DNA of 40,000 nt from Halococcus salifodinae (GCF_052043865.1 NZ_JBQEMN010000005.1); one strand, 5' to 3'; counted from the first letter of the stretch, positions 1-22,247 are shown. Notes: a model not told the origin generated them from the sequence alone. Numbers and translations are program-made.

Positions 1-2299
1 TCCGTGGGTAGACGTCCGGATCATCGCACTCGCACCCTTCGTCGCCGATGAACGCAGTCTCACATGACCGACAGTGCTGATCGTGATGGATTTCAAAGAG
101 CCCACGCTTCACGAACGTGGACGATCCACAGTCGCATCGATTGGGGCTTTCCTCGAAGTGAATCCGACTACAGTCGCTGTTGTCACAGACCCACGGGAGG
201 AATCTCGTCAAACTGAGCGAGGAACCACAGTCGACACACTGGTCAGGGGCCTGTTTGGGGTGTTCGTAGGTCTCACCACAGTCCGGGCAATCGAATCGTC
301 CATCGATGGTGGCGAGGGCGAAGTCGGTCCCGTCACAGTTCTCACAGACACGTTCGGCCTCTTGGGTCGCCTCACACTGCGGATTAACGCAGGTGAACGA
401 TTCTTCTTCAGTCCTGACGGTCTTGGAGTCGCACTCGGGACAGTCCCGGATCGTCGTTCGCTCGGTTCGGTGCCTGCAGTTGCGGCACTCGAGGAATGGC
501 TGGAACGTCGCACGTACCATCTGAACGATGTCGTCGCGCACGTCCTCACATCGGCGGCAGACGTGTTCCTCGTCTTGGTCGATCGTTCCGTGCTCAGTCG
601 GCGTGTACGGTTCTAATTGATCACAACTCGGGCAGTACCACGCGACGAGATGCTCATCACTACAGTGCCGACAGTAGGTGGAGCGCGTGACGAAATCGAA
701 CCCACACTCACGGCAGTCGTCCTGTGGCGAACGGTACGTCGCATCGCACAACGGGCACGTGTAAAAGCCATCAATCGGCCAAGAGAACACATGACTCCGG
801 TTCTCCAGCATGCCGGAGAGCTCACCAAGGGTCCGGACGTTCGACACCAGTGTCGATGCTTCCTCAGCGTCAAGGTCCAGGACCGTCGCCAACTCGTCGT
901 GCAGTTGTGACTGCGTGAGTGGTTCGTCGTACAGCAACTGATGGACGTAGCGAACGACCTGTGCGCCAGGGTCGTTCTCGACTTCGGTGAGGTGGTCAAA
1001 GAGTGCGTCGCTCACCAGAGTCTCCCTGCGGGTACGATCGTACCTCGACGCGTCCTCCAGCGTGTAGTCGAACGCGTCGAGACCGGGGACCACGTCGTCC
1101 GGCGCGGTCATCGCACGCAGAATTCTGTCGACCGACAGACTGTACGACGTCAGCGCTTCTGGCACCTTCTCTGGAACGTTACCATCGAGGCCGCGAGGAG
1201 ATTCGCTCACTTGATTGACGTCGACGGCACCGCTGACCTTCTGGAACAGTTCGAGGTCGTTCTCGACAGTCGCACTGCTCGCGATGAGTTGCAGGTCGTC
1301 GACGCCACGTTCTTCCCGAAGAGACCGAACCCGCTTCATTAGCATCGACGTGTAACTCCCGAACAACCCATCGTAGGTATGCACCTCGTCGAAGACGAGA
1401 AATTCGGGCTCGTAGATGAATCGTTCGTGTTCGTCCTCGGCGTTGGTGTTGATGAGACGGTAATTTATCGTGTCTGGGTTGGTGAGCAGGATATCGACAC
1501 CGTCCTCAAGGATGTCGTTTTTAGTCAGGCGCAGGAAATCGAGCGGAACATCATTCGGATCGTCGTCCTCGCAGTGCGCTTTTTCGGGAATGAGTTTGAA
1601 CCGAGCACCAGTGTTCCGGATACGGACGCCGCCACCACAGTCTTGACACTTGGCAAGTTCGTCATTGTACCCCGGACACTCGAAGTGTCGGAACGTCGCG
1701 TTGAGGTATCCCTCAGCCCCCGACTCGCCGACATTTCGTGGGGTATCGCCGTCGTAGATGCCGACCGTGATCTGCTGTTCGGACGTTAGCTGCTTGTTGA
1801 TGAGGTATAGGTACTGAAGGAGACGCTTCAGTTGGTCCTGTGCGAGCGCCTTCGTCGGATAAATGAGAGTGGCCTTGACGCTCGTGTCGTCGTCACTTTG
1901 TCCGTAGCGCTTGTTCTTGAGAATGCGGTTGAGGATCGGAATGAGCCACGCTTCGGTCTTCCCGCGTCCCGTTGCGGCCGTAATGACGGTGTCGTCACCA
2001 TCGAGAATGGCTTCGATACTACGCTCTTGGAAGTCGTAGAGACGCTCGAAGCCGATCTTTGTGAACGCACGGCGGATATGCGGTTCGAGGTATTCCGAGC
2101 GAGCGAAGGCGTCCCACGAGCGACCACTCCAGTTCGGGATATCGAGTGCCTGGAGGTACGGACCGCGCATTCCAGTGAGAGCGTCTTCACCTTCGACAAG
2201 CCGGTTGGCGACAGTGCGCGCTGCTCGTCCACCACGACCAACGAAGTAGTCGTGGTAGGCTTCCTGCATCTGTTCCGCGCGGGCGGCAGGGTCTTTCAT
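1..2299 (-). CDS. SF2 DEAD/DEAH-box helicase (COG1205 / Lhr-YprA-like) with a tandem zinc-ribbon array; 3' end lies beyond the window edge
   Basis: Absent from the ORF track because this minus frame stays open from ATG 2299 down to position 1. Hand translation: MKDPAARAEQMQEAYHDYF... Motifs: I ITAATGRGKTEAW, Ia IYPTKALAQDQ, II LVFDEVHTYDG, III SSATVEN. These are followed by at least 7 CxxC...CxxC ribbons (CPLC/CREC, CRHC/CPSC, CRNC/CPEC, CENC, CPDC/CVDC, CRSC...). The ATG lies 2 nt after the upstream stop (2302-2304). Confidence 0.8.
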   Translation of the reverse strand, partial: MKDPAARAEQMQEAYHDYFVGRGGRAARTVANRLVEGEDALTGMRGPYLQALDIPNWSGRSWDAFARSEYLEPHIRRAFTKIGFERLYDFQERSIEAILDGDDTVITAATGRGKTEAWLIPILNRILKNKRYGQSDDDTSVKATLIYPTKALAQDQLKRLLQYLYLINKQLTSEQQITVGIYDGDTPRNVGESGAEGYLNATFRHFECPGYNDELAKCQDCGGGVRIRNTGARFKLIPEKAHCEDDDPNDVPLDFLRLTKNDILEDGVDILLTNPDTINYRLINTNAEDEHERFIYEPEFLVFDEVHTYDGLFGSYTSMLMKRVRSLREERGVDDLQLIASSATVENDLELFQKVSGAVDVNQVSESPRGLDGNVPEKVPEALTSYSLSVDRILRAMTAPDDVVPGLDAFDYTLEDASRYDRTRRETLVSDALFDHLTEVENDPGAQVVRYVHQLLYDEPLTQSQLHDELATVLDLDAEEASTLVSNVRTLGELSGMLENRSHVFSWPIDGFYTCPLCDATYRSPQDDCRECGFDFVTRSTYCRHCSDEHLVAWYCPSCDQLEPYTPTEHGTIDQDEEHVCRRCEDVRDDIVQMVRATFQPFLECRNCRHRTERTTIRDCPECDSKTVRTEEESFTCVNPQCEATQEAERVCENCDGTDFALATIDGRFDCPDCGETYEHPKQAPDQCVDCGSSLSLTRFLPWVCDNSDCSRIHFEESPNRCDCGSSTFVKRGLFEIHHDQHCRSCETAFIGDEGCECDDPDVYPR

Positions 2300-2301
2300 C
2301 G

Positions 2302-3132
2302 TTAGAGATTCAGTTCGACTGCCGACTCGAGTTCGTCGACGCGCTTCATCTCCTCGACGCTATCGAGTGAGACGTCTGCCAACGTGAGTTTCCGAGACTG
2401 GCTGAGTGTCTTAACGTCCTCAACGGTCGAGTCGGAGAGATCGTGCTTCTTTTGGAAGTCATCGAAACTCTGAAGCGACTGATGCTTCTCCCAGCTTTTC
2501 ACTGCGTTCTTCCACTGGGAGACGAAGTTCGATGCCGACCCGCTCGAGTCCATCAACTCCTCATTCAGGAGATTGTGCATATGGTTGAGTGTACGCGAGA
2601 AGTCCCTGTTCTGTCCTCCGAGAATCTTCTGGAGTTCCTCGGCGGCATTGACCTTCGTATTCCATTTCTCTTGCTTGGACTCGATCTGACGCCCAGTTTG
2701 CTCAATTACGTTATCGGCCTGACGCTTCGCTGACTGAATCTGCTCGATCTGCTTCTCTATCTCCGGAGTCAACTCAACTTTCGGGTTGCCCCTATCGTCG
2801 TCGGAGCCGAGTTCACCCTCGTCATCGGTGATTTCACCACTCTGGGCGTTCTCCAGCAGTTCCCCCTGTGTCGCCTCGGCCGCCTTCTTGGCGGTCTGTC
2901 CAGCACTATTAGTCATTGTCGGCGCTGAACCGTCGAGTGCCTCTTCGAAAACCGTCTTGTAGTATCGAAGATCTTCGAGACTTTCGATGAGATCGTCGAG
3001 TTCGCTGTTGACCTCGTTGATGTTGTGCTTCGCGACTGAGACGTGGAACTGGGTGTTTTCTGCTTGCTTGTGCGTCTTGACCTTGTCTTCGAGAGCCTCC
3101 ACGACTGTGGGTAGCGATTGGGTACTGGACAT
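2302..3132 (-). CDS. Hypothetical coiled-coil protein (276 aa)
   Basis: Part of track ORF 2302..3393. I trimmed it to ATG 3132 (MSSTQSLPTVVEALEDK...), which lies 1 nt after the stop of the upstream gene (3134-3136). The sequence is heptad-like and rich in K, E and Q. It sits in an operon. Confidence 0.7.
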   Translation of the reverse strand: MSSTQSLPTVVEALEDKVKTHKQAENTQFHVSVAKHNINEVNSELDDLIESLEDLRYYKTVFEEALDGSAPTMTNSAGQTAKKAAEATQGELLENAQSGEITDDEGELGSDDDRGNPKVELTPEIEKQIEQIQSAKRQADNVIEQTGRQIESKQEKWNTKVNAAEELQKILGGQNRDFSRTLNHMHNLLNEELMDSSGSASNFVSQWKNAVKSWEKHQSLQSFDDFQKKHDLSDSTVEDVKTLSQSRKLTLADVSLDSVEEMKRVDELESAVELNL

Positions 3133-3133
3133 T

Positions 3134-6100
3134 TCACAAATCCTCCGTGACTCCGATGACATCCTGCCGCTTCCGTTCGTACTCGGTGTACTCGTTGAGT
3201 TGCTGGATTCGGTGTTCGAGGTCGATCCCAGTCGAATGCTCTTGATCCTGAAGTTCGTCGATGAGCGAGTCGAGTGCTTCGTATATGTCCCAGGCCCCCT
3301 GCTCGTGGCTGCTGCGAGCGAAGTCGTGCAGGCGTGCGACGAGCGTCGTTCCAGTCGCGTCGTCCATGCTCTGGAACTTCTCCACGTCCTCACCGAAGGA
3401 TGTGAGTTTTACTTCGCCAGGCGATTCGGTAAGCGTCTCGTGGGCGTCTTCGTAGCTCGACTTGATGGTGACGTCCATCGTGCCAGCGCAGGTGTAAAGC
3501 GTCTCGAACCACTCGACGAGGTCGTCGACCGTGTGACTACTGTCGTGCCACCGCTCGACCGGCTCTAAAGCCTCCCGGATATGGGATGCGTCTTGCTCGG
3601 CTGTGAGACGCTGTATTTCAGTCGCGTAGTCCGAGATGCGGCTGAATAGTGTCGATACATTGGTGTTGGCCTGATTGCGAGTCGAGCCGATCTTGTATGC
3701 GTCGGGCAGATCACCTGTATCGATCATCATCGCGTCGTCGACGTGGGCTTCGAAGTTGCCCGCGACCTCACGTCGTGCTTCTGCTAAGCGCTCGTAGTCG
3801 ACGACATTCGACTTGAGCAGGAAGAACCCTTCAATGAGATCGCTGATATCGCTCGAAGACGCGCCCAGGTTCGTGAACGCTTCCCCGAACGCGCTGTCGC
3901 GCTCGAACTCATCGACGATCGGCTTCCCGTACGATTGGTCGTGTTCGTAGTCCTCGAAAACGAGCTGTGTCGATAGGCTGTCCTTTTCGATCTCCGTCCC
4001 CCTCGCGGCGTTGATGAGAAAGATCTGCCCCAGAACTAGCGTCTTCTCGATGGTGAGTCCCTCGGGGAGGCAGTCTTCGACCTCCTCGCGCATATCTTGC
4101 TTGAACTGCGCAACATTGGTGTCTGCCCACGCGCGTAACTGGTCGAAGTTCGTGTCGGTGGTATCGAACGTCTCGAAGAGACCGTATTCGAGCATCGGAG
4201 TGTAGAGGTCTGCGTGTTCTGCCCCCCACTCAAGTTCGATGTCGATGTTCGCCTGACGCTGCTGGTCTCCCTGGATGGACACCGGGATGCTGTCGCCGCG
4301 AGCGTAGTAGATCGCGCTCGCAGAGCGCGTCGACGCGTTCGGATTCCCGAGACGGCTCGGGTCATGACCGCGTTCGAGCGTCTCTATGGCCCCGTCGTGT
4401 AGCGTGTCCGAACTCGGATATTCTTCGCCGCTGATCACCCAGTCTTGGAACTCTTGGAACTTGTGCTGGCGCTCACGCTCCTCTTCCGATAGTTCGGACT
4501 CGTCGGTGACATCGACCTCGTCGTCCTCTTCGTCCCCGCCTTCGTCGTCTTCGGGGCCATTGTCCTCGCCCTCTTGCTCGTCACCGTCGTCTTCCTCGTC
4601 GATCTCGTGTTCGGGCGCGGGCGGGTTCTTGATCTTGTCGAGAACGGCACTTCCTTTTCCCTTATCGAAGACAACGTAGTCATCTTTCGCGGGCGCTTCT
4701 CCACTGTTGGGGAGTTCGATACCGAAGGCATCGAAGACATCGGTCTTGACACCGATGCCGCCCTCGACGGGAACACCGTACCAGCGACTGACGTCTTGGT
4801 ATATCTGGTCGTACTTCATGTCGACCTCGAACGTGGGCGTGTCCACGAACGAGTTCGACTTCATCGCCTTGTAGGGTGGCCAGGTCGACTTCAGGCAGTG
4901 TTTCACGACCCGCAGCAAAAGCAGGCGGGGCGTCTTTCGGTTACTACCTTCGTCGTTTAGCTGGCGGTAGGCGATGTTGACGAACCGTTCGTTGAACGGA
5001 TACAGTCCGTCGAAGGACTCTTCGACGCCATCCGGAGTGCTTTGGCTTCCAGAGTGACGTTTGATAGCGTTGAGGTATGACCGCGTGAGTTCGACAGAGG
5101 CGTCGTCGTCGAGGAAGTAAGCCTCGCCGTTCTCGTTGGTCATCGTTAGATATCCCTTGGAACGGCCTTTCATGTACGTAGCCGCGTCCGAGCGAGTCAT
5201 CGCGTCGTCGATGTTGTCCTGTTCCCAACCGATCGTCCACCCGAGGACGATGTCGTAGTGGCTGCTGCTGAGGTCGAAGATGTGGTCGAGGAGTTGTTCT
5301 TTTAGGACACTGAACGTCGTGAGGTCCTCACAGATGAGCACCGGCCGAATGTCCTGCTCTTGGTACAACTGAGAGTATTCTTGGAGTTGTTCCTTGAAGT
5401 CTCCAACCAGGTTTCGAGAGAGGTACTCGTGGGCCTCGTTCTTGAGTACCGTATAGAGCAGATCTTTGTTCTCGGTGAGTTTGTCGCTGAAGCTCATCTG
5501 GAGCCGAAGGTCCCGGAAGTCGGAGCGAGTGAGGAGGTTGAAGTCAGGGTTCTCGTCACGAGACTCAAGAGCGTCCTGGTACTTCTGAATGTTCTTCGCG
5601 AAGATTTCACGAAGGTCGCTCTTGTTGTCTCGTTTGTTAGTGAGTTCTTGAACGTCTTGGTCTGTGAGGTGATTAGTTGACCAGATACCGCGCATATACT
5701 CGACGATGGCACTCGCAGCGTCGTTCGGGTCGAGATCGTCGATGTTCTGCACGTCGGGATCGACGTCTAGGGGTTCGGTGAGAACATCGATGATCTGGTC
5801 CATCCGAGTCTGGCTTCGAGACACGTGAAGTGCCACGTAGTCCTCGACACCGTTGTCGTCCTCTCCGTAGCCGTTGATCTGGTACTTCGTCCACTCACAG
5901 AGTTGGCTCTTTCCAGAACCGGGTTCCCCACGGACGATGAAGATTCGGTTTGGATCCTCAAGATTCGACGCCGTGATGGATTCAAGGATGTCGTTTTGCG
6001 TGACGAAGTCCCCTGAGACGCCCACTGGAGTGAGCGTATCGGCGTAGATCCGGTCGATGTCGACGTGAGTTTCCTTGAACTGCTCGGGGGTCTTCTTGGC

Positions 6101-6199
6101 TGTGTGGGCTTCCGAGGTGATGAAATGGTCGATCTCGTCGTCATCCCAGTAGCGGTCCATCTCGCCGGCGGTCGAGGGTTGTTGAACGCTGTTGTTCAT
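3134..6199 (-). CDS. Large P-loop NTPase (1021 aa), family unassigned
   Basis: Track ORF. ATG 6199 overlaps the upstream stop (ATGA). Walker A is IVRGEPGSGKSQLCEW and a Walker-B-like motif is RPVLICEDLT. There is a central D/E-rich linker. I recognise no other domain. Confidence 0.8.
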   Translation of the reverse strand: MNNSVQQPSTAGEMDRYWDDDEIDHFITSEAHTAKKTPEQFKETHVDIDRIYADTLTPVGVSGDFVTQNDILESITASNLEDPNRIFIVRGEPGSGKSQLCEWTKYQINGYGEDDNGVEDYVALHVSRSQTRMDQIIDVLTEPLDVDPDVQNIDDLDPNDAASAIVEYMRGIWSTNHLTDQDVQELTNKRDNKSDLREIFAKNIQKYQDALESRDENPDFNLLTRSDFRDLRLQMSFSDKLTENKDLLYTVLKNEAHEYLSRNLVGDFKEQLQEYSQLYQEQDIRPVLICEDLTTFSVLKEQLLDHIFDLSSSHYDIVLGWTIGWEQDNIDDAMTRSDAATYMKGRSKGYLTMTNENGEAYFLDDDASVELTRSYLNAIKRHSGSQSTPDGVEESFDGLYPFNERFVNIAYRQLNDEGSNRKTPRLLLLRVVKHCLKSTWPPYKAMKSNSFVDTPTFEVDMKYDQIYQDVSRWYGVPVEGGIGVKTDVFDAFGIELPNSGEAPAKDDYVVFDKGKGSAVLDKIKNPPAPEHEIDEEDDGDEQEGEDNGPEDDEGGDEEDDEVDVTDESELSEEERERQHKFQEFQDWVISGEEYPSSDTLHDGAIETLERGHDPSRLGNPNASTRSASAIYYARGDSIPVSIQGDQQRQANIDIELEWGAEHADLYTPMLEYGLFETFDTTDTNFDQLRAWADTNVAQFKQDMREEVEDCLPEGLTIEKTLVLGQIFLINAARGTEIEKDSLSTQLVFEDYEHDQSYGKPIVDEFERDSAFGEAFTNLGASSSDISDLIEGFFLLKSNVVDYERLAEARREVAGNFEAHVDDAMMIDTGDLPDAYKIGSTRNQANTNVSTLFSRISDYATEIQRLTAEQDASHIREALEPVERWHDSSHTVDDLVEWFETLYTCAGTMDVTIKSSYEDAHETLTESPGEVKLTSFGEDVEKFQSMDDATGTTLVARLHDFARSSHEQGAWDIYEALDSLIDELQDQEHSTGIDLEHRIQQLNEYTEYERKRQDVIGVTEDL

Positions 6200-7122
6200 T
6201 GTCGGGTCAGGAACTGGGTGAGGGGGTACTGATAGGCCGTTTCGTCCGGGCGCGAGTGGATCGAAACGCGCGTCGCGTCACGCCGGTTTCCGCGAACGTC
6301 GTCGTCGAGGTCCTCCGGTGGAATCTCGACCGCGTTCTGCGAGTCACCGGGATTCGACAGAGAAATTACACCGTCATCCTCCATATTCCGCAGCACGTCG
6401 GCGATCGTGGGGTGGACACGCGGAGTGCCTGCCCGCTCTTCATACACCGCGAAGAGGTTGTCGTTTATCCAATCGAGTGCTCGCCGGAACTCTCCATCCG
6501 TTACTTCCACGTCGTCGTAACTGGGTTCCTCGCTGGAGGTCGTCGGAGCGAGTACGAGAGCGTCGTATGCCAAAGCACGACAGGGGCTGAGGACGAGTTC
6601 GTCTTCCGTCTCAGTTAACAGCCCCAGTTGCTCACACAGCGTCACCCACATATCGATCTTCTCGTCGGTCCAACTGAAGGTGTAGTCTGTCTCGCGCTTC
6701 AGGATGGTACGCAAGTCATCTTGACTGCCACTCACAATCCTGTTTTCCTCAGTCAGCAGCGCACGGTAGACATCAGCGAAGTGCGTCTGTCGCCCCTCCT
6801 GTTGGTTGCAGTGATACAACAATCGCGCTTCGAACTGGAGTCCACCGAACTGAGACTCGTTGATGCGTTCGACCGTGCTCCTGATGTCCCCTGAGGGACT
6901 CTCAACGAGATCGACCGCGTTCAGGAACCGCACTGTATCCTCGACGTGATCGGATTCGATCCCGTTGTCAGTTGGACGCCCAAACTTACTCGCCAGTTCG
7001 TTGACGCTGGTTGCGCTCTGAATGGCGTTGTGGATATGCTTTAATTCCGGTGCTCGCACCGAGATGAACCCGGTGAGTAACTTGTCTGGTTTCGTCTTAG
7101 CCGATGTGTACGTTGTGCTCAT
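6196..7122 (-). CDS. Hypothetical protein (308 aa)
   Basis: Track ORF 6196..7239 trimmed to ATG 7122 (MSTTYTSAKTKPDKLL...). This start overlaps the stop of the upstream gene as ATGA (7119-7122). The composition is acidic. Confidence 0.7.
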   Translation of the reverse strand: MSTTYTSAKTKPDKLLTGFISVRAPELKHIHNAIQSATSVNELASKFGRPTDNGIESDHVEDTVRFLNAVDLVESPSGDIRSTVERINESQFGGLQFEARLLYHCNQQEGRQTHFADVYRALLTEENRIVSGSQDDLRTILKRETDYTFSWTDEKIDMWVTLCEQLGLLTETEDELVLSPCRALAYDALVLAPTTSSEEPSYDDVEVTDGEFRRALDWINDNLFAVYEERAGTPRVHPTIADVLRNMEDDGVISLSNPGDSQNAVEIPPEDLDDDVRGNRRDATRVSIHSRPDETAYQYPLTQFLTRQ

Positions 7123-7985
7123 TCGTTCTCCTGATGACGATAGCGGTAGTCGTCGAGTCGTTCTTCCTCGAATTCCACCAACTCGAGCATGTCTATCATT
7201 CGGTTGGCGACCTGCTGGGTCGGCCCGCGTTCGGTCCACGACCGGAGCGCTTCCCTGATACGCTCGGAGTAATCCTCGAGGACATTATCGACATCCTCGC
7301 GGATGAGATAGTACAGGGGACCCCAGACTGGACTATCAGCAGGAATTTGTGTGTAGTCGAATAGTTCCGGGATGGACCCCGCGTTTAACTCCGCCGCCTT
7401 GTGATGGGCAGAGATCTGATGGAAGTACAGGTTCTGAGTCGTGGACAATGGAAGGTCCGAATCGAGATTGTACTGTAGGTAGCGCTTCAGCAGCGCTTTA
7501 TGATCGACAACCGTACATTCGAACTCATCGATGAACGACTTCCCTGGTTTCTTCGTATATCTGGGCATCGTTGGCGTGCTCGTATCGGTGACAAGCAGGT
7601 AGGGGACCCCTGAAGGTCTGTCCCGTAGCAGTTGGCGAACGATGTCTTGATCGTCGAAGGTATGCTCCTCGTCCTGTAGCTCACCAGTCAGCATCTCCTG
7701 GCTGATGTAGTGAACGAGAGGGAACTCAACGTTGTCCACACCGTTCTCTCGCAGCGACTCGTTTGCGACCATGTCGTATTCGACGAGGCGCAATCCGTTG
7801 TCGTAGATTCCGGGGTGAGCAACCGTTCCAAGTTCGAACTCTGCCAGCAACGGCAACGTCCGAAGTTGCGCACGTGCTTGCGTTCCAGTCTTTGCGAGTT
7901 GCGGATCTCGCATCACGACAAACGAGTCTCGCGTGCCGATGAATTCCGCTATCGCGGGCGTCTCTGTGTTGGGTGGGTCCATCAT
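7119..7985 (-). CDS. Hypothetical protein (about 288 aa), first gene of the five-gene operon; weak PD-(D/E)xK-like spacing
   Basis: Track ORF 7119..8036 starts at a GTG. The first ATG pair is at 7985/7982 (MMDPPNTE...). The motif LLVTD ... VVDHK is only suggestive of a nuclease fold. The start codon is uncertain (7985 or 8036). Confidence 0.6.
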   Translation of the reverse strand: MMDPPNTETPAIAEFIGTRDSFVVMRDPQLAKTGTQARAQLRTLPLLAEFELGTVAHPGIYDNGLRLVEYDMVANESLRENGVDNVEFPLVHYISQEMLTGELQDEEHTFDDQDIVRQLLRDRPSGVPYLLVTDTSTPTMPRYTKKPGKSFIDEFECTVVDHKALLKRYLQYNLDSDLPLSTTQNLYFHQISAHHKAAELNAGSIPELFDYTQIPADSPVWGPLYYLIREDVDNVLEDYSERIREALRSWTERGPTQQVANRMIDMLELVEFEEERLDDYRYRHQENE

Positions 7986-8182
7986 CGTCTGGTGTGCTTG
8001 GGTTCGGCGTCGATGTGGGATGGACGCCGACTGCACGCATCCATTAGTCGTAGCCGTGGCTACGGAACGATACAGCCGTTTTAGGCCGCGTCGAACGGGA
8101 TGCGATCACATATCCTTCAGGGGCAGTTGGTTTGAACCTGTCGGAATTTTTTATTTTATGTTCGCACAGATGGCTCTCCTCG

Positions 8183-8208
8183 TTCCAGGAAGCGACATCA
8201 TCCTGGAA
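8183..8208. promoter_or_regulatory. Perfect 8-bp inverted repeat TTCCAGGA-N10-TCCTGGAA in a divergent intergenic region
   Basis: Read directly from the sequence. It lies in the roughly 390-bp AT-richer spacer between the effector operon and the Csa3-like gene. A second palindrome, CGTAGCC-GT-GGCTACG, is at 8049-8064. Confidence 0.3.
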
Positions 8209-8424
8209 TAGCGTGCGAACTCTTGGCAGTACCATGAGAACAATCAAATAGTTGCCGACGGTGCAACAAACACGGGACAGTTGCGGTGATCTGGAACGAC
8301 AAAGCAGTATATCTGGGCTAATTGATCCATTTGCCACCAATCCGAATCTGATTCTATACAGATTTCACTCCCACTGTTGCGTTGAAGCGGAACAGTAACG
8401 ACCATCCGAAGGAGTAGCAAAAAC

Positions 8425-9078
8425 ATGCGCACCTATCTAGCGCCACTTGGTTTCGACAGTCGACGTGTAGTACGGCCAGTTTTAAGCGAAGGTCTTGACA
8501 CCGGCGACCACATCCTGTTGTTACAACCCGCTACCGGATCAGATCAAGGAGATAGCGCGCTCGAGGAGGTAGAGGACATCCTTACACAGGTCGTTCCCGA
8601 TCTCGACCCAGTAGCTGAAACCTTACCCTACTCGGATTTCGTAGAAACGACGCTACACTGTGCCGACCTCATACAGGCGTCTGACGGCGAGACAATTGTC
8701 ATTCTTGGTGGAGGTGCACGAGAATTACTTCTCCCTCTGACCATCGCGACGTTCACCGCTACAGATGATGTGGACACCATCCTTCAGATAGGAGATATCG
8801 ACAGCAGCGTTCGACGGCTCCCTCAGCTGAACCTCCGAGGGAACGTTTCAGACGCCGAGGCAGGGTTGCTAGCAGATCTAGGTATGCTGGATACGCCACT
8901 TTCCATCACCGAAATAGCAGACGGATTGGACAAATCAAAGAGCACGATAGCCCGCCATGTCAGTAGCCTTGAATCCGAGGGATTCGTCTCGGCCAGCAAG
9001 AACGGTCGGTTGAAGAATGTCTCGATAACCGACAGCGGGCGGGTATTCCTGAAAACGTGGCACCGACCGCAGATCTGA
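8425..9078 (+). CDS. Csa3-like regulator (CARF-like Rossmann N-domain plus C-terminal winged HTH)
   Basis: Track ORF with an ATG start. The N-terminus MRTYLAPLGFDSRRVVRPVL, then DHILLLQP, then IVILGGGARELLLPL, parallel the Csa3 layout. The C-terminal part LSITEIADGLDKSKSTIARHVSSLESEGFV is a wHTH. Confidence 0.6.
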   Translation: MRTYLAPLGFDSRRVVRPVLSEGLDTGDHILLLQPATGSDQGDSALEEVEDILTQVVPDLDPVAETLPYSDFVETTLHCADLIQASDGETIVILGGGARELLLPLTIATFTATDDVDTILQIGDIDSSVRRLPQLNLRGNVSDAEAGLLADLGMLDTPLSITEIADGLDKSKSTIARHVSSLESEGFVSASKNGRLKNVSITDSGRVFLKTWHRPQI

Positions 9079-9147: not shown

Positions 9148-10302
9148 TCATATTTCTTCCTGTATGAAATCGGCGTCGATCCTCGATCGCTCTTCGTCGA
9201 CTGCCGCATCGAGTACCCGGCTACACACAGAGAGAACCTGTCGGATGTTCCCCTGTGATCGCTGGTGTATTATTGAGAGACTCTCTTCGGTGAATGGATC
9301 AACACCCCCTGTTCCATTTGTCCGTGCGGGAGCAATATACGTTGACACCAATTTGTTGATATGGTCGTCGGTTAGTGGTCGCAGGGCCACTTCTTGCCCA
9401 ATACGCTCAGAGAACGCGTGGTACTCGCTCATTACGTCCTGCCAGACCTCCGGTGCACACCCAAAGAGCATACAGAGACCATGACTGTTCTGGTCCATCA
9501 AGTGACGGATGCTGTTCAGCGTCGCTTGTTCGGCTTTCGCGCTGAGTCGAGCAATGCTCTCGAACTCATCAACGAAAACGAAAACACCTGTATAACCGAG
9601 ATCAAGCAGGAGGTTCTTCAGCGCCGTGAACGCTCGGACACTGGTAGTATCGTCGTCGAGTGCACTATGGATCTCCATTTCTTTGCGCTGCTCATAGCGA
9701 ATGCCCTCGGCAGTGAGCCACTGCCACGCGTAGAGGTTCGTATCCTCGTACACCATATGTACGATCGCACGAGCGAAGTCAGCGAACTTCGTCACGTTGT
9801 TGAGTTGCTGGACAGCCTCCGGAACCAGTTCCGATAGTAATACTTCACCGTCATCGATTAGTTGCTCTACCGTGCTTGCGTCCGTTGGATTGCAATCGGT
9901 GGTGTTGCGGGCCACCTGAGCGAGGTACTCGTAAGCGAGCGTCTGAATGCGGTCGAACCCGAGATCGTAGACGAACTCGTGATAGATATCGCGGAAACCT
10001 TCGCCCGGCTGGGCGACGTAGCCGACGACGACATCCTCACGGTCGCGCACGAGCGAGCGTGTGTACTTGAGCGTGTGTGACTTCCCATTTCCGTACTTTG
10101 CGGTGACAACGAGATGCTTCGACTTCCCGGTCGAGAGCATCGTCGAGACGGTGTCGCTGATGGCTCTCGTGGCGTGCTCCTGCCCACAGTAGAGTGCTGG
10201 GTCGTTATCCGGAACTGGACTGTATGGGAAGGGATTCTCCTCTAAGCCGAATTGGGAGTAGTCGCGCTGTTCGTCCGTAATGCTGAATGTATCGTTGGTC
10301 AT
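9148..10302 (-). CDS. AAA+/ORC-like P-loop ATPase (384 aa)
   Basis: Track ORF. Walker A is VVTAKYGNGKSHTL and Walker B is GVFVFVDEFE. ATG 10302 overlaps the upstream stop (ATGA, 10299-10302). Confidence 0.8.
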   Translation of the reverse strand: MTNDTFSITDEQRDYSQFGLEENPFPYSPVPDNDPALYCGQEHATRAISDTVSTMLSTGKSKHLVVTAKYGNGKSHTLKYTRSLVRDREDVVVGYVAQPGEGFRDIYHEFVYDLGFDRIQTLAYEYLAQVARNTTDCNPTDASTVEQLIDDGEVLLSELVPEAVQQLNNVTKFADFARAIVHMVYEDTNLYAWQWLTAEGIRYEQRKEMEIHSALDDDTTSVRAFTALKNLLLDLGYTGVFVFVDEFESIARLSAKAEQATLNSIRHLMDQNSHGLCMLFGCAPEVWQDVMSEYHAFSERIGQEVALRPLTDDHINKLVSTYIAPARTNGTGGVDPFTEESLSIIHQRSQGNIRQVLSVCSRVLDAAVDEERSRIDADFIQEEI

Positions 10303-11201
10303 GTCTCTTTCTCCTGAGTAAAGGTGAGGTTGCGGTCGTAGACCGCGAGGTAGTAGTATTGTTTGCCGAACTGTTCGATACCGGCCATCACGCGCTCGGT
10401 GGATTGGTCGGTCGTGACGAGACCCTCCTTACTTCCGAGGTCGATCTCCTTGATGCCGAGCTGGGCCTCTTTCGCCCCCGTATCCATCGGCGCTCCCGAG
10501 AGTTCGATATGGCCAACGTTCTGCTGAGCAAGTCGTCTCAGCGCCTCGTCGAAGACACTTCGGGGGCAGCCATGACGTTCACAGAAGTGCTCTCGGAGCA
10601 ACGGGATCGAGAGGTATCGTTGTCGGAGGTCGACGCCTGCCGTCTCTTCGAGATCGTCGTACACCGCGAGCAGCGCGAACGGGAAATTCGACGGTACTAC
10701 GTTCCGCTCGACGGAGTAGTAGCCCCCCGTAAACGAATTCCGCTGAACAGTACCGAGGCGTTCAGCCCAGTCGCCCACGACCTCGACACTCGTTTGGTTG
10801 TACGAATGGTTGGTGAATTCTTCAAGCGATTCGAGTTCTTCGAGCACTGCTTCAAGCGAGGCAGGGGCAACGTTGTCGAGTGCTTCCAGAAACGCACTGT
10901 AGTGTGGGCTTTGCGTGGCGAGCACGTCACTCACCTTGGACCACTCCTCAGCACGAACCGCCTCAAGAAATCGATCGCCAATATGCGTACTCTCATACGT
11001 TTCGTCCTCATCCTCTTGCTGTTCCGATCCGAGCAGACCGATCCGCAGTGTCTCGAGAGTAGTTTCACGGGCGCGGCGGTGGGTCACATCAAGTGCCGAT
11101 TTGATGTCCTCTAGCGTCCGTGGGCCATCCTCGCAGATATGGGACGTTTCCACGAGTCGCGCCAGCGTTACAGGTCGTATGGTTGGGCGTTCGTCGCTCA
11201 T
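10299..11201 (-). CDS. Hypothetical protein (about 300 aa), possible N-terminal wHTH
   Basis: Track ORF 10299..11207 starts at a GTG. ATG 11201 (MSDERPTIRPVTLARLVE...) lies 2 nt after the TGT stop (11204-11206). It is coupled on both sides. Confidence 0.7.
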   Translation of the reverse strand: MSDERPTIRPVTLARLVETSHICEDGPRTLEDIKSALDVTHRRARETTLETLRIGLLGSEQQEDEDETYESTHIGDRFLEAVRAEEWSKVSDVLATQSPHYSAFLEALDNVAPASLEAVLEELESLEEFTNHSYNQTSVEVVGDWAERLGTVQRNSFTGGYYSVERNVVPSNFPFALLAVYDDLEETAGVDLRQRYLSIPLLREHFCERHGCPRSVFDEALRRLAQQNVGHIELSGAPMDTGAKEAQLGIKEIDLGSKEGLVTTDQSTERVMAGIEQFGKQYYYLAVYDRNLTFTQEKET

Positions 11202-11203
11202 TA

Positions 11204-12238
11204 TCACGTGAGTCTCCTGACCTGCTGTTTCGCCTGTCGGTACGCCCGTTTGGTGACCTCGTTACCCTGAAACCGTAGGTCGAGGTACGCCTCCACGTCC
11301 TCGTTGGCAGCAACCATGTAGCGGAAGCGTCGGAGTTCCATCGTGAGCGCCCAGAGATTGTGCTTCGTCAGGGCATTACGATCCTCACGCAACTCCGTAA
11401 ACGGCGTGTCACGACAGACTGGGCACGAACACGGGAGGTACGAGAGTTCGGTGACGTGTTTGAGTTCCTGACCACCAAACCCTGGAACCAGATAATTCCG
11501 GTTTCCAGCGCTCCGGATAAATGCCGAGGAGTCGAAACTATCGACCCCCAGGTACAGCAGTAGGGGTTGGTATACTAACCCCCCCAATCCGTACACATGC
11601 AGGTGCTTGTCGGTCGCCCGTCTGGCCGCAAGTATTATACTTGTCACCTTTTTGTAATCTGTTCTGACCGGAACGAGACTCCCGAGCGCGTACCCGTCGA
11701 AATCGCCGTTACGCTCTAAGTACCGGACGTTGTTCTGTACCGTCTCCGGATCGAGACCATGGATACTGGCGAACAGTAATTCCTCACCGTCATGTTCGTC
11801 ACTCGCTTCAACGGCATACTCCGCACTATCGGAGATGCGCCGCTGGTTTTCCCTGTCTCGGTTCTCTCGGGAGATGGGCCGATCTACCGTCCCGAGGATG
11901 TCCGCGCCGATCTGACGCTGTGTTTCGAGCGTCCGTGCTGGGGTAGTGTCGACGTCTCCCGCTTGGAAGTCGAACCCCCCACTGTCGGCGAAGATGACGG
12001 TTTCCTCTGGGATGTCCATCTCTTCACGGAGAGTAGCCCCGTTGAGGAGGCGATTCCACTGTGGATCACGTTGTCTGATCGCTCGTGCATTCACCATCGC
12101 TGTCCGAAGGTCCGGAATCGCATCGGCGTACGCTGGCGTGTTGTCGGAGGATCGTTTGCCGATGTTCCGAACCGGGAACAGGACGGGCGTCTTAATGCAC
12201 CCGTGTGGCGTGTTGAGCGTTCGTTGTCTGTACAGCAT
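11204..12238 (-). CDS. Minimal TGT-family transglycosylase (ArcTGT-like catalytic core only, 344 aa)
   Basis: Track ORF 11204..12295 starts at a TTG, trimmed here to ATG 12238 (MLYRQRTLNTPHGCIKTPVLFPV). Motifs: FADSGGFD, HVYGLGG, LGVDSFDSSAF, and the zinc motif CSCPVCR...KHN. No C-terminal PUA, C1 or C2 region is present. Confidence 0.85.
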   Translation of the reverse strand: MLYRQRTLNTPHGCIKTPVLFPVRNIGKRSSDNTPAYADAIPDLRTAMVNARAIRQRDPQWNRLLNGATLREEMDIPEETVIFADSGGFDFQAGDVDTTPARTLETQRQIGADILGTVDRPISRENRDRENQRRISDSAEYAVEASDEHDGEELLFASIHGLDPETVQNNVRYLERNGDFDGYALGSLVPVRTDYKKVTSIILAARRATDKHLHVYGLGGLVYQPLLLYLGVDSFDSSAFIRSAGNRNYLVPGFGGQELKHVTELSYLPCSCPVCRDTPFTELREDRNALTKHNLWALTMELRRFRYMVAANEDVEAYLDLRFQGNEVTKRAYRQAKQQVRRLT

Positions 12239-12275
12239 GCGCGACGCGCTCGGGTAGCTCGGGTTCCGTGTTAAA

Positions 12276-12293
12276 GCTTTGTGTGGACAAAGC
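12276..12293. promoter_or_regulatory. Inverted repeat GCTTTGT-N4-ACAAAGC in the divergent TGT / wHTH promoter region
   Basis: Read directly from the sequence. It abuts a TTTAA element about 32 nt upstream of TGT ATG 12238. Confidence 0.3.
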
Positions 12294-12355
12294 AATCACG
12301 GCGAGGAGGTACTGAGGACGGAGGATGTATAGTGAGCGGGGGCAACGCCAAGAGT

Positions 12356-12640
12356 ATGCACTCCGCGGTCGACGAAGTAGTCTGTCCGAAGCGGTCGCTG
12401 GAGATCTTAGACTATCTCAGCGAACACGACGAATCGAACTTCAGTACGATTGAGGATGCTGTGCCGACATCGAGCGATGTAGTGACTGAGCGATTGGAAA
12501 CGCTCCAAGAGTACGGGTTAGTTGAGCGCGAAGAGCGGAGTTCACGCAACGTCCGGTATTCGCTCACTCAGGATGGGGAAACGTTTCTCACCCATCTCGA
12601 AGAAGTAGATGAGTTTCTCCAAAACTCCCGCGGCGACTAG
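12356..12640 (+). CDS. Small winged-HTH transcriptional regulator (94 aa)
   Basis: Track ORF 12281..12640 starts at a GTG, trimmed here to ATG 12356 (MHSAVDEVVCPKRSLEILDYLSEHDESNFSTIEDAV...VRYSLTQDGETFL). It is divergent from the TGT operon. Confidence 0.7.
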   Translation: MHSAVDEVVCPKRSLEILDYLSEHDESNFSTIEDAVPTSSDVVTERLETLQEYGLVEREERSSRNVRYSLTQDGETFLTHLEEVDEFLQNSRGD

Positions 12641-13344
12641 TCGTACGAACCGAGTCCGGACTGGCGTGTTGGTTCCGTCGTACAGTACTCGACGACTTCC
12701 GTGAAAGAATCGATCGTTGTACCCTCCGCCCTGTGTGCGGCAAATTGCTTTAGATACTGTCCTTTTAGTCCAATAACGGTACTTCCCTGTTCTTTCGCCT
12801 CGGCCGTTCGTGCGGGGATGGAAATGACATTTGGCCGTTGCTCGGCGTCGGCTTCACGATTGAACAGCACGACCATCGTCGAGTCGGAGAATGTATCAAG
12901 CAGTCGGGAGAGGTCGAGTGCCTCGTAGTAGTCACTCCCGAGTGCAAGGAAGACGAGATCGTAGGCGGGGTCGTCGTCTAGTCGATTGAGCAGGTCGCTC
13001 TGGATCTCTAGTTCCGAGGATCGCTCGTGGACGCTCTCAGTATCGTAGTCTTGGAACGTCACTTCGTAGGGCGGGAGTTCGGTCGCCTCACCAACGAAAC
13101 CGAATCCTGCACTGATATAATAGCGATCAACGGTGTCTCCGGACTCCCGAAGACGATCAACGGCTACGTCGATATACTGCTGTTGACGGCCAGTATAGAG
13201 GTCGTGAGCGGAATAGGTCGGCGTCCGTTCCCGCTCACGGAGTTCGGGGAGGGAGAAATCGTCGATGGTCTCGGCGTCAAACGAGTCGAACCATTCGGGC
13301 GATTGCTTCGATCCCGAACACTGGTCGACGACGAGTACACGCAT
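12637..13344 (-). CDS. Hypothetical protein (235 aa) coupled to the DpdA-like gene; N-terminal VLVVDQCSGSK motif
   Basis: Track ORF 12637..13350 starts at a TTG. ATG 13344 lies 2 nt after the upstream stop (13347-13349). I recognise no family with confidence. Confidence 0.7.
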   Translation of the reverse strand: MRVLVVDQCSGSKQSPEWFDSFDAETIDDFSLPELRERERTPTYSAHDLYTGRQQQYIDVAVDRLRESGDTVDRYYISAGFGFVGEATELPPYEVTFQDYDTESVHERSSELEIQSDLLNRLDDDPAYDLVFLALGSDYYEALDLSRLLDTFSDSTMVVLFNREADAEQRPNVISIPARTAEAKEQGSTVIGLKGQYLKQFAAHRAEGTTIDSFTEVVEYCTTEPTRQSGLGSYD

Positions 13345-13346
13345 CC

Positions 13347-15554: not shown

Positions 15555-15685
15555 CGTTGTTAGTCACCGATAGCGGGTTGCCACGTCTGGTATATGAAGG
15601 TGCTCAATCTACAGCGGTGGTATTCGTTAGAGACAGATGGCGATGAGCAGCTACGCCTAAGTGTAGTGGCGTACAATCCGAGATC

Positions 15686-15985
15686 ATGCCCGTCATCACC
15701 TCCGATCGCGTCCTCGAAAACGTAGAGCACATCTTGTCAAGTGGATCTGGCGTGCTGGATTTTGCTGTGAGCGGCGAGGATGAGTACTATACATGGTGGG
15801 GAACAGAAAAATCGAACTGGGAAATCAGCGGTGTGGGCCACATCGAAAACGCTGAGGAAGACAGAATGGCCATCTATCCCATTGGAGATGCATTCTATTG
15901 CGAAATCTCAGCCGACGGGGAGGAGTTCAATACCGGTCCCGTGAAATGTGTATCAGAAGAATCGAAAGAGTCGGCATCTGTATAA
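15686..15985 (+). CDS. Small acidic hypothetical protein (99 aa)
   Basis: Track ORF with an ATG start. It fills the gap between the DpdA-like gene and queC on the opposite strand. The composition is acidic. There is no homology evidence. Confidence 0.45.
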   Translation: MPVITSDRVLENVEHILSSGSGVLDFAVSGEDEYYTWWGTEKSNWEISGVGHIENAEEDRMAIYPIGDAFYCEISADGEEFNTGPVKCVSEESKESASV

Positions 15986-15992
15986 TCGCTAT

Positions 15993-16703: not shown

Positions 16704-16773
16704 TCACCGTGCGCGAACTGGTCGAAATAGACGACCGGCATGCATTTTTCACCCGATTATTTACCATTCTGTC

Positions 16774-17553: not shown

Positions 17554-17554
17554 A

Positions 17555-18022: not shown

Positions 18023-18044
18023 ACTGGGGTATGACTGGGAGAGG

Positions 18045-18052
18045 ATTTAAAA
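18045..18052 (-). promoter_or_regulatory. TATA-like box (TTTTAAAT on the minus strand) 23 nt upstream of the queD ATG
   Basis: Read directly from the sequence. The spacing fits an archaeal promoter producing a leaderless transcript. Confidence 0.3.
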
Positions 18053-18123
18053 CTAATCTTCAGGCTGGAAGTGCTACAGAGATAATTGATCACGCATTCT
18101 GTTGGCGGATGGAAAACATAAAC

Positions 18124-18300: not shown

Positions 18301-18332
18301 ATTACAGTATTATCTCTCACCAACTTAGTTCC

Positions 18333-18364
18333 TCTTGTGATGACGAGTATTGTACCTCACAAGA
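18333..18364. promoter_or_regulatory. Inverted repeat TCTTGTGA-N16-TCACAAGA upstream of the RHH gene
   Basis: Read directly from the sequence. It lies 33-64 nt upstream of the RHH ATG (18300) and is a candidate autoregulatory operator. Confidence 0.3.
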
Positions 18365-20646: not shown

Positions 20647-20653
20647 ATAGAGG

Positions 20654-21477: not shown

Positions 21478-21494
21478 TTCCACGTCCGCTGTCT

Positions 21495-22232: not shown

Positions 22233-22247
22233 TCTGAGGGCGTCTTT

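What the first reader, a model, noticed from the sequence alone, without database searches (positions are those of the whole stretch)
1..8036. Five-gene translationally coupled operon that I cannot assign to a named defence family
The gene junctions on the minus strand are very tight:
- ATGA overlap at 7119-7122;
- ATGA overlap at 6196-6199;
- a 1-nt gap at 3133;
- a 2-nt gap at 2300-2301.

The gene order is: unknown (288 aa, with a weak D...DHK nuclease-like spacing), unknown (308 aa), a P-loop NTPase (1021 aa), a coiled-coil protein (276 aa), and an SF2 helicase. An architecture of ATPase, helicase and small unknowns, coupled this tightly and sitting next to a modification module, is typical of restriction or defence effectors. 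I see no methyltransferase, PLD, SMC, PglZ or DUF1837-type marker that would place it in BREX, DISARM, Wadjet, Hachiman or similar systems. The operon may continue beyond the left edge.
Basis: partly seen in the sequence, partly recalled or inferred. Interest (0 to 1): 0.75.

Follow-up and report, generated by a model that had tools for sequence, protein, structure and literature searches.

The report
Haloarchaeal BRIGADE (Dpd-like) restriction operon
This tightly packed operon is the restriction half of a haloarchaeal defence island that probably marks its own DNA with a 7-deazaguanine base; the type, BRIGADE, was named from genome comparisons in a 2025 preprint and has not been tested experimentally.

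Summary
All four tight junctions are in the sequence and recur in 12 related haloarchaeal loci. The operon has seven genes, not five. An assembly identical to the window shows the cut helicase is 1842 aa and is followed by a paralogous helicase of 1816 aa. In 11 of 11 complete relatives a 658-aa protein with a C-terminal PLD nuclease domain comes next.

Profile comparisons identify genes 2 to 4 as distant homologues of DpdG, DpdH and DpdI, in the same order and sizes as in bacterial Dpd islands. Both helicases belong to the YprA/MrfA family. Gene 1 matches no Dpd protein.

A divergent Csa3/CasR-like regulator and the adjacent DpdA, second TGT and QueCDE genes complete the match to BRIGADE type II (Bell et al., bioRxiv 2025). 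The locus is therefore an instance of a named but untested system.

The "unassignable" verdict and the nuclease motif in gene 1 were not.

Three smaller points seem new:
- Gene 1 defines a small family with no known fold match.
- The operon has a conserved, structured 5' leader.
- Similar loci occur on two non-halophile metagenome contigs, whereas the preprint reported BRIGADE only in halophilic archaea.

The parts
1..2299 (-). Gene 5, the first 766 of 1842 aa. A YprA/MrfA-family SF2 helicase of the ARMADA/Druantia-like kind, with a zinc module inside RecA1 and a long array of zinc ribbons between RecA1 and RecA2. It is cut by the window edge.
   Evidence: Pfam DEAD 1e-23. PADLOC DpdJ 1.5e-30 and DruE about 1e-22. 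The full length comes from the identical assembly L001. The best solved-structure match is YprA 6znp, 1.7e-27. The MZB/DUF1998 domain at the C-terminus scores 26.1 bits against a cut-off of 24.2. Motifs I, II (DEVH), III and VI and 48 cysteines are invariant across both paralogues.
2302..3132 (-). Gene 4 (276 aa), the DpdI-like subunit that follows the NTPase.
   Evidence: Same position and size as bacterial DpdI (226-282 aa). hhalign against DpdI gives probability 67.9%, E=5e-5, over 225 collinear columns, while the control comparisons give 2.5% or less. Its 117 homologues at this sensitivity are all from haloarchaea or hypersaline samples and none has a Pfam domain.
3134..6199 (-). Gene 3 (1021 aa), a DpdH-like P-loop NTPase. 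The preprint equates DpdH plus DpdI with BrxC.
   Evidence: NCBIfam DpdH E=6e-12. PADLOC DpdH 2e-5. hhalign against DpdH gives probability 99.5%, E=2e-23. Walker A and Walker B align with those of DpdH.
6196..7122 (-). Gene 2 (308 aa), DpdG-like, probably a winged-helix DNA-binding subunit.
   Evidence: hhalign against a bacterial DpdG family gives probability 96.8%, E=3e-10, over 248 collinear columns, while controls give 0.3% or less. Same position and size as DpdG. There are weak winged-helix hits. The AlphaFold model was poor, pLDDT 48.7.
7119..7985 (-). Gene 1 (288 aa), first gene of the operon. It is specific to this system and has no counterpart in canonical Dpd. The predicted fold is an alpha/beta domain followed by a helical bundle.
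   Evidence: No hit in Pfam, NCBIfam or PADLOC. No hhalign match to DpdB, D, E, F, G, H, I or K. AlphaFold model pLDDT 82.5, pTM 0.82. Foldseek found no significant match; the best hits are AAA+-like with E 0.02 to 0.0015 and TM about 0.2. The family has only 41 clusters at 50% identity among 1.84 billion proteins. In every locus examined it sits first, next to the Csa3-like gene where one is present.
7986..8103 (-). Conserved structured 5' leader of the operon: three hairpins, an invariant CCAUCCCAC loop, and CCCAAGC shortly before the ATG.
   Evidence: Alignments A4 and A7. 95.8% of cells are paired, 4 pairs show compensatory changes, 0 of 500 shuffles reach this, and slid controls give 17-48%. 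No Rfam match.
8104..8424 (.). Divergent promoter and operator region. It holds an A/T-rich BRE/TATA-like element at about 8125-8165 and a repeated motif, TTACTGTTCCG-N7-GTGCAACAG. The best copy is at 8374-8399, 26-50 nt upstream of the regulator's start codon.
   Evidence: Conserved blocks in the alignment of 9 loci and the sequence itself. Function is inferred.
8425..9078 (+). Csa3/CasR-like regulator (CARF-like Rossmann domain plus winged HTH), transcribed divergently from the operon.
   Evidence: Pfam Csa3_N 9e-13 plus HTH domains. PADLOC CARF3 9e-85 and CasR 1e-19. Present next to gene 1 in all haloarchaeal relatives.
9148..12295 (-). A translationally coupled trio next to the operon: a short arcTGT-like transglycosylase (11204-12295), an unknown 302-aa protein (10299-11207) and a BrxD-like ATPase (9148-10302). 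It is probably part of the modification side.
   Evidence: Pfam TGT 6e-29 and BrxC_BrxD 6e-17. NCBIfam TgtA 5e-43 and BrxD 3e-13. The ORFs overlap by 4 nt. The trio is conserved in L007, L008 and L042. The short TGT resembles the second TGT on Nostoc and Paenibacillus plasmids.
12637..18022 (-). Modification and precursor genes: a DUF6884/DpdC-like protein (12637-13350), a 735-aa DpdA (13347-15554), QueC (15993-16703), QueE (16774-17613) and QueD (17555-18022).
   Evidence: NCBIfam DpdA E=4e-78, 263 bits against a cut-off of 200. PADLOC DpdC 5e-8. Pfam QueC 1e-51, Radical_SAM 8e-18 and PTPS 1e-20.

Best explanation
The operon is the restriction (effector) module of a BRIGADE type II system. 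BRIGADE is a Dpd-like defence island of haloarchaea that distinguishes self from foreign DNA by a 7-deazaguanine modification. The source is Halococcus salifodinae or a very close relative.

Shown here:
- The complete operon has seven translationally coupled genes. In order they are gene 1 (a system-specific protein of unknown fold class), a DpdG-like protein, a DpdH-like P-loop NTPase, a DpdI-like protein, two paralogous YprA/MrfA-family helicases with intact ATPase motifs and many zinc modules, and a 658-aa protein with a C-terminal PLD nuclease domain.
- A Csa3/CasR-like regulator is transcribed divergently from it.
- Next to it lie a bona fide DpdA, a second TGT paralogue, a DpdC-like protein and the preQ0 pathway genes QueC, QueD and QueE.

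Inferred mechanism:
- QueCDE make preQ0. DpdA, perhaps helped by the short TGT and the BrxD-like ATPase, exchanges guanines in host DNA for a 7-deazaguanine derivative.
- The complex of genes 1 to 4 is the ATP-dependent module that binds DNA and reads its modification state. The DpdG-like subunit would bind DNA and the DpdH/DpdI-like pair would act as a BrxC-like NTPase.
- On unmodified DNA this complex recruits or licenses the two YprA helicases, which unwind or translocate along it, and the PLD nuclease degrades it.
- The CasR-like regulator, and possibly the structured 5' leader, keep restriction expression matched to modification.
For: - Junctions and their conservation.
- Seven-gene extent.
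- hhalign with negative controls: DpdG 96.8% (E=3e-10), DpdH 99.5% (E=2e-23), DpdI 67.9% (E=5e-5).
- Library hits: NCBIfam DpdH 6e-12 and DpdA 4e-78, the latter above its cut-off. PADLOC DpdJ, DpdH and DpdC.
- Same G-H-I-J-K order, sizes and overlaps in a canonical Dpd island on E. cloacae pPOL9A and in 18 metagenome loci.
- YprA hallmarks: best solved structure YprA 6znp at 1.7e-27, MZB domain above cut-off in both paralogues, helicase motifs invariant.
- PLD domain with invariant HGK...GSAN in 11 of 11 relatives.
- All five haloarchaeal plasmids found with a gene-1 homologue also carry a DpdA735 homologue.
- The definition of BRIGADE fits. It requires a deazaguanine cluster, DpdG, DpdHI/BrxC, two YprA helicases and a PLD, and type II adds a CasRa-like regulator and a zinc hairpin in RecA1. 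The zinc hairpin corresponds to invariant C208, C218 and C221 between motifs I and II.
Against: - Nothing here or in the literature searched tests BRIGADE experimentally. DNA modification, restriction and every step of the mechanism are inferred.
- The preprint calls the two type II helicases 'nearly identical'. Here they are 37% identical, though collinear with the same architecture.
- The DpdI assignment is only moderately supported (67.9%).
- Gene 1 has no assigned function.
- The PLD gene was seen only in relatives. The window's own contig was read only as far as the middle of gene 6.
- PLD domains were reported dispensable in Druantia III-A, and DrmC dispensable for DISARM defence against some phages. 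The PLD protein may therefore not be the main effector.
Confidence: 0.85

Rival explanations
1. It is a canonical Dpd restriction module (dpdD-K), simply diverged in archaea.
For: DpdG, DpdH and DpdI homology in the same order. PADLOC and NCBIfam DpdJ hits on gene 5. A PLD gene at the end, as DpdK is. An adjacent DpdA.
Against: No DpdE, DpdF, DpdD or DpdB homologue was found. The DpdJ hits cover only the RecA1 core. Full-length scores are equal or better for DruE, 1e-36 against 5e-34. The helicase is duplicated. The PLD protein is 658 aa against 176 aa for DpdK, and its hhalign match to DpdK is not significant. All NCBIfam Dpd scores for the operon are far below the equivalog cut-offs, for example DpdH 45 bits against 450. 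Gene 1 is absent from Dpd.
Confidence: 0.08
2. It is a modification-independent helicase-nuclease defence of the Druantia or ARMADA type that merely sits beside a tRNA or DNA deazaguanine cluster.
For: Genes 5 and 6 score best against DruE profiles. Several related loci show no modification genes inside the stretch fetched.
Against: There are no DruH or other Druantia partners and no BrxHII/PglX pair as in ARMADA. DpdG, DpdH and DpdI homologues are otherwise known from Dpd islands. The operon co-occurs with a DpdA homologue on all five plasmids found with a gene-1 homologue and on both non-halophile contigs. The fetched stretches reach only about 3 kb beyond the regulator gene on one side and about 2.5 kb beyond the PLD gene on the other, so absence of modification genes is not shown.
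Confidence: 0.05
3. It is a housekeeping DNA-repair operon built around MrfA/YprA-like helicases.
For: The best solved-structure match is the repair helicase YprA/MrfA.
Against: The block is shared at 56-87% identity across distant haloarchaeal genera and lies on plasmids, so it is mobile. The helicases carry the large zinc-module elaborations that the preprint says characterise the defensive YprA homologues as a whole. The operon is linked to a PLD nuclease, a CasR-like regulator and a DNA-modification cluster.
Confidence: 0.02

Closest known systems
BRIGADE type II (Bell et al., bioRxiv 10.1101/2025.09.15.676423)
   Same: Haloarchaeal host. A 7-deazaguanine gene cluster. DpdG-like and DpdH/DpdI (BrxC-like) proteins. 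Two YprA helicases of the ARMADA/Druantia-like kind with a zinc hairpin in RecA1 and a large zinc-ribbon module. A PLD nuclease encoded right after the helicases. A CasRa-like regulator.
   Different: The two helicases are 37% identical, not 'nearly identical'. In the text and supplementary tables I could read, the preprint does not mention gene 1, the 5' leader or the TGT / unknown / BrxD-like trio; its Figure S1 could not be viewed. The preprint reports BRIGADE only in halophilic archaea, whereas similar loci occur on two non-halophile contigs.
Canonical bacterial Dpd system (dpdA-K; Thiaville et al. 2016, as cited)
   Same: DpdA-based DNA modification with preQ0-pathway genes. The order DpdG, DpdH, DpdI, YprA helicase, PLD, with overlapping junctions and matching sizes.
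   Different: No DpdB, DpdD, DpdE or DpdF. The helicase is duplicated and is not of the DpdJ clade. The PLD protein is four times larger. Gene 1 and a CasR-like regulator are added. DpdA is 735 aa and is accompanied by a second short TGT.
Druantia (DruE) and ARMADA YprA helicases
   Same: Very large YprA helicases with an MZB domain and zinc modules. DruE gives the best full-length profile hits.
   Different: No nuclease is fused to the helicase C-terminus. There is no DruH, and no BrxHII/PglX pair. The partner genes here are Dpd-like.
BREX core (BrxA, BrxB, BrxC), as analysed by Rakesh & Krishnan, NAR 2026 (PMC12839542)
   Same: A small DNA-binding protein and a small alpha/beta protein lacking Walker motifs precede a large P-loop NTPase. 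The preprint equates DpdH/DpdI with BrxC. A UniRef name calls one gene-2 homologue DUF4007, which that paper describes as BrxA-like.
   Different: No PglZ, PglX or BrxL. No BrxA, BrxB or BrxC profile hit for genes 1 to 4. No Pfam hit to DUF4007 was reported for gene 2 or four of its homologues, even at E up to 5. The resemblance of gene 1 to an inactive AAA+/STAND fold rests only on non-significant Foldseek hits.

Membership tests
BRIGADE type II | Two YprA-family helicases, both ARMADA/Druantia-like | tested here: met
   Genes 5 and 6 are collinear paralogues. The best PDB match for gene 5 is YprA. MZB is above cut-off in both. DruE is the top full-length PADLOC hit for both. Caveats: they are 37% identical rather than 'nearly identical', and no phylogeny was run.
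BRIGADE type II | DpdG and DpdHI/BrxC homologues | tested here: met
   hhalign gives DpdG 96.8%, DpdH 99.5% and DpdI 67.9%, with off-diagonal controls at 2.5% or less. NCBIfam DpdH 6e-12.
BRIGADE type II | PLD-superfamily (or alternative) nuclease in the operon | tested here: met
   A 658-aa protein with PLDc_2 (25.7-28.2 bits, cut-off 27) and invariant HGK...GSAN is present in 11 of 11 complete relatives. It lies beyond the window and was not seen on the window's own contig.
BRIGADE type II | 7-deazaguanine biosynthesis and insertion genes nearby | tested here: met
   DpdA is above the NCBIfam cut-off, and QueC, QueE, QueD and a DpdC-like protein are present.
BRIGADE type II | CasRa-like regulator | tested here: met
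   Csa3_N plus HTH domains. PADLOC CasR 1e-19 and CARF3 9e-85.
BRIGADE type II | Halophilic archaeal host | tested here: met
   Genes 1 and 4 are 100% identical to Halococcus salifodinae proteins. The proteins are acidic, pI 4.3-4.6.
BRIGADE type II | Self DNA actually carries a 7-deazaguanine base and unmodified DNA is restricted | not testable with these tools
   Needs nucleoside mass spectrometry and genetics. No experiment on BRIGADE was found in the literature.
Canonical Dpd (dpdA-K) | DpdB (ParB-like), DpdD, DpdE and DpdF present | tested here: not met
   No hit among the 14 ORFs scanned between 1 and 18022. hhalign of genes 1, 2 and 4 against DpdB, D, E, F and K is not significant.
Canonical Dpd (dpdA-K) | Proteins reach the NCBIfam equivalog cut-offs for DpdH and DpdJ | tested here: not met
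   DpdH 44.8 bits against 450. DpdJ 93.6 bits against 800.
YprA/MrfA helicase family | SF2 core plus a C-terminal MZB (DUF1998) zinc-binding domain | tested here: met
   DEAD and Helicase_C. MZB at 26.1 and 28.5 bits against a cut-off of 24.2. An invariant cysteine cluster at residues 1788-1803.
Druantia | DruE together with DruH or DruA-D partners | tested here: not met
   Only the helicases hit DruE. No other Druantia profile matched.
DISARM | Split DrmA/DrmB, DrmC and a DNA methyltransferase | tested here: not met
   DrmA hits are weaker, 1e-23. The helicase is not split. No DNA methyltransferase was found in the operon or among the neighbouring genes scanned.
BREX | PglZ, PglX and BrxC | tested here: not met
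   No PglZ or PglX. Only the neighbouring 384-aa ATPase hits BrxD.

The most novel reading that the evidence does not exclude
Genes 1 to 4 form a BREX-like sensing core. In this reading gene 1 is a new inactivated AAA+/STAND-like subunit, analogous to BrxB, that canonical Dpd lacks. The conserved structured leader RNA is a cis-regulator, possibly sensing a 7-deazaguanine precursor or bound by a protein, that ties restriction to modification capacity. The system type also extends beyond haloarchaea into non-halophiles, which would make it a broader, older defence family than the preprint reports.
Probability: 0.15. Interest if true: 0.6.

Novelty: new member of a known kind. Interest (0 to 1): 0.4.

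Why it matters
DNA containing 7-deazaguanine is one of the few non-methyl, non-phosphorothioate marks that cells use to tell self from foreign DNA. How the restriction side of Dpd-like systems reads that mark is still unknown, and none of the papers found here reports an experimental test in archaea.

This locus is a compact, complete and apparently intact example in a cultivable haloarchaeon. Close relatives sit on plasmids of Haloferax and Haloarcula species. It could therefore serve as a test system.

The value of this work is that a "mystery operon" is now placed in a named family, with its full gene set, subunit homologies and regulatory region mapped. It does not reveal a new kind of system.

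Tried and rejected
- Pfam, NCBIfam and PADLOC scans of genes 1, 2 and 4 returned nothing usable, even at relaxed E-values.
- hhalign against a single bacterial DpdG sequence was uninformative. It became informative only after I built bacterial DpdG, DpdH and DpdI families from 18 metagenome loci and added divergent and non-halophile relatives.
- A tblastn search for DpdG in plasmids found only 3 records.
- The AlphaFold model of gene 2 was too poor to search with, pLDDT 48.7.
- Profile searches of solved structures with genes 1, 2 and 3 found nothing.
- Gene 1 as a PD-(D/E)xK or 'D...DHK' nuclease is rejected because the residues are not conserved.
- Gene 1 as a relative of DpdB, D, E, F or K is rejected.
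- Rfam gave no real hit on the leader. The window has no tRNA genes.
- The leader could not be aligned in the more divergent gene-1 subclade.
- The preprint's supplementary table S1 is truncated in the held copy, so I could not check whether this genome is listed.

Full report
**The observation**

The four minus-strand junctions are exactly as described: ATGA overlaps at 7119-7122 and 6196-6199, a 1-nt gap at 3133 and a 2-nt gap at 2300-2301. The mechanical ORF list offers longer GTG-initiated versions of genes 1, 2 and 4. They keep the same spacings (-4, -4 or -1, +1 or +2, +2), except in L007, where gene 3 is split, and their proteins are 56-87% identical. The genes and their coupling are therefore real.

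**Extent of the operon**

A look-up by exact protein sequence found an assembly whose genes 1 to 5 are 100% identical to the window's (L001).
- Gene 5 is 1842 aa there.
- After about 26 nt comes a second helicase of 1816 aa. It is 37% identical to gene 5 and collinear with it over 1245 residues.
- In all 11 complete relatives a 658-aa gene then overlaps the second helicase's stop by 8 nt. Its C-terminus is a PLD domain (PLDc_2, 25.7-28.2 bits against a cut-off of 27) with an invariant HGK...GSAN signature.

The operon therefore has seven genes.

**What the genes are**

- *Gene 3* has Walker A (GEPGSGKS) and Walker B (VLICED) motifs. It hits NCBIfam DpdH (E=6e-12) and PADLOC DpdH.
- *A reference island.* A canonical Dpd island on Enterobacter cloacae plasmid pPOL9A shows dpdG (291 aa), dpdH (1068 aa), an unnamed gene in the dpdI position (282 aa), dpdJ and dpdK (a PLD) with overlapping junctions. 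The order and sizes match genes 2 (308 aa), 3 (1021 aa) and 4 (276 aa) here.
- *Families used for comparison.* I built bacterial DpdG, DpdH and DpdI families from 18 metagenome loci and two plasmids. I enlarged the haloarchaeal families with a divergent subclade and with non-halophile relatives.
- *Genes 2 to 4.* Profile-profile comparison then gave gene 2 against DpdG 96.8% (E=3e-10, 248 columns), gene 3 against DpdH 99.5% (E=2e-23) and gene 4 against DpdI 67.9% (E=5e-5, 225 columns). Every off-diagonal control was 2.5% or less.
- *Genes 5 and 6* are YprA/MrfA-family helicases.
  - The best solved-structure match, run for gene 5, is YprA 6znp (1.7e-27).
  - The MZB/DUF1998 domain is above the Pfam cut-off in both.
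  - Motifs I, II (DExH), III and VI and 48 cysteines are invariant across both paralogues. These include a zinc site inside RecA1 and a long zinc-ribbon array between the RecA domains.
  - Full-length PADLOC scores favour DruE slightly over DpdJ.
- *Gene 1* has no hit in any library and no relation to DpdB, D, E, F, G, H, I or K.
  - Its AlphaFold model is confident (pLDDT 82.5) and shows an alpha/beta domain followed by a helical bundle.
  - Foldseek finds only non-significant AAA+-like resemblances.

**Surroundings**

- A Csa3/CasR-like CARF-HTH regulator is transcribed divergently from the operon.
- Next comes a coupled trio: a short arcTGT-like enzyme, an unknown 302-aa protein and a BrxD-like ATPase.
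- Beyond that lie a DUF6884/DpdC-like protein, a 735-aa DpdA (NCBIfam 263 bits, cut-off 200), and QueC, QueE and QueD.

**Comparison with what is known**

Bell et al. (bioRxiv 2025.09.15.676423) define BRIGADE as haloarchaeal systems that combine a 7-deazaguanine cluster, DpdG, DpdHI/BrxC, usually two YprA helicases and a PLD or PD-(D/E)xK nuclease. Type II has two ARMADA-like helicases, a zinc hairpin in RecA1 and usually a CasRa-like regulator.

Every sequence-level criterion is met here (see the membership table). The one caveat is that the two helicases are 37% identical rather than 'nearly identical'.

The locus is not a canonical Dpd system. DpdB, D, E and F are absent, and all Dpd equivalog cut-offs are missed by a wide margin. 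Literature searches found no experimental work on BRIGADE.

**Mechanism**

The mechanism is inferred, not shown.
- QueCDE supply preQ0, and DpdA installs a 7-deazaguanine base in host DNA.
- The complex of genes 1 to 4 acts as the ATP-dependent module that binds DNA and reads its modification state.
- The YprA helicases and the PLD nuclease act on unmodified DNA.
- The regulator, and perhaps the leader, balance restriction against modification.

The operon and a DpdA homologue co-occur on all five haloarchaeal plasmids found with a gene-1 homologue, and on both non-halophile contigs. This supports a functional link between the two halves.

**Additional observations**

1. An exhaustive search finds only 41 clusters at 50% identity for gene 1 among 1.84 billion proteins. 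The distant members are not acidic.
2. Two longer contigs with GC 0.42-0.44 and protein pI about 6-8 carry the gene 1-2-3-4 block together with a helicase like genes 5 and 6 (32-34% identical over the full length) and a TGT.
   - One also has a homologue of the 658-aa PLD protein.
   - The other also has a DpdJ-like helicase (NCBIfam 1.4e-88), which is a type I-like arrangement.
   - The preprint reported BRIGADE only in halophilic archaea.
3. The 118 nt upstream of gene 1 form three conserved hairpins. 95.8% of cells are paired, four pairs show compensatory changes, G-U cells are present, and 0 of 500 shuffles reach these values. There is no Rfam match.
4. An inverted-repeat motif recurs in the divergent promoter region.

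**Verdict**

The functional guess is supported. The claim that the operon cannot be assigned to a named system is overturned. The locus is a member of a recently named, purely computational and experimentally untested family. Interest is moderate.

Noticed in passing
window 7986-8103 (minus strand): A conserved 118-nt structured 5' leader lies upstream of gene 1. It has three hairpins, an invariant CCAUCCCAC loop, and CCCAAGC before the ATG. 95.8% of cells are paired, 4 pairs show compensatory changes, and G-U cells favour an RNA-level rather than a DNA-level element. There is no Rfam match. It could not be aligned in the divergent gene-1 subclade.
   Followed up: partly
window 8374-8399 and about 8240-8290: An inverted-repeat motif, TTACTGTTCCG-N7-GTGCAACAG, lies 26-50 nt upstream of the CasR-like gene, and degenerate copies lie further on. 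It is conserved in 9 loci and is a likely operator for the regulator.
   Followed up: no
window 9148-12295 (minus strand): A translationally coupled trio: a short arcTGT-like enzyme (363 aa), an unknown 302-aa protein and a BrxD-like ATPase (384 aa). It is conserved in L007, L008 and L042. No ParB-like DpdB was found, so this ATPase might supply the ATP-dependent step of base insertion.
   Followed up: partly
window 12637-15554; L016 19158-23132; L017 9933-16114: The DUF6884/DpdC-like protein is a separate gene here. On Nostoc and Paenibacillus plasmids it is fused to the N-terminus of long DpdA proteins (689-714 aa), and those plasmids also carry a second short TGT. This variant modification module is therefore shared between bacteria and haloarchaea.
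   Followed up: partly
L049 (SRR28285590) and L050 (SRR27151687): Two non-halophile contigs (GC 0.42-0.44, protein pI about 6-8) carry the gene 1-2-3-4 block, YprA helicases like genes 5 and 6, and a TGT. L049 also has the large PLD protein. L050 also has a DpdJ-like helicase. Taxonomy is unknown. The only phage hit for a terminase-like gene on L049 was a Nitrososphaera provirus (29% identity over 37% of the query).
   Followed up: partly
L049 15428-18727; haloarchaeal plasmids NZ_CP119991.1, NZ_CP084465.1, NZ_CP099393.1, NZ_CP100464.1; Scytonema plasmid AP018264.1: A UvrD-like helicase, next to a PD-(D/E)xK nuclease on L049, has its best plasmid matches on two cyanobacterial plasmids and on the haloarchaeal plasmids that carry these systems. 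One of the cyanobacterial plasmids (Scytonema) also carries a DpdA homologue. The helicase may be an accessory effector pair.
   Followed up: no
L007 6040-9139 (Halomarina oriensis); L009 10001-13756 (Halorubrum sp. F4): In L007 gene 3 is split into two reading frames near 7541-7647. In L009 gene 5 stops early at 1251 aa. These are possible pseudogenes or assembly errors.
   Followed up: no
window 18000-31300: GC falls to 0.46 at 18-19 kb, just past QueD. A serine resolvase lies at 21495-22394. An XPB helicase with a DUF790 protein lies at 28329-31278, and a ParA-like ATPase at 36466-37338. Together these suggest a plasmid or a mobile island. The window has no tRNA genes.
   Followed up: no
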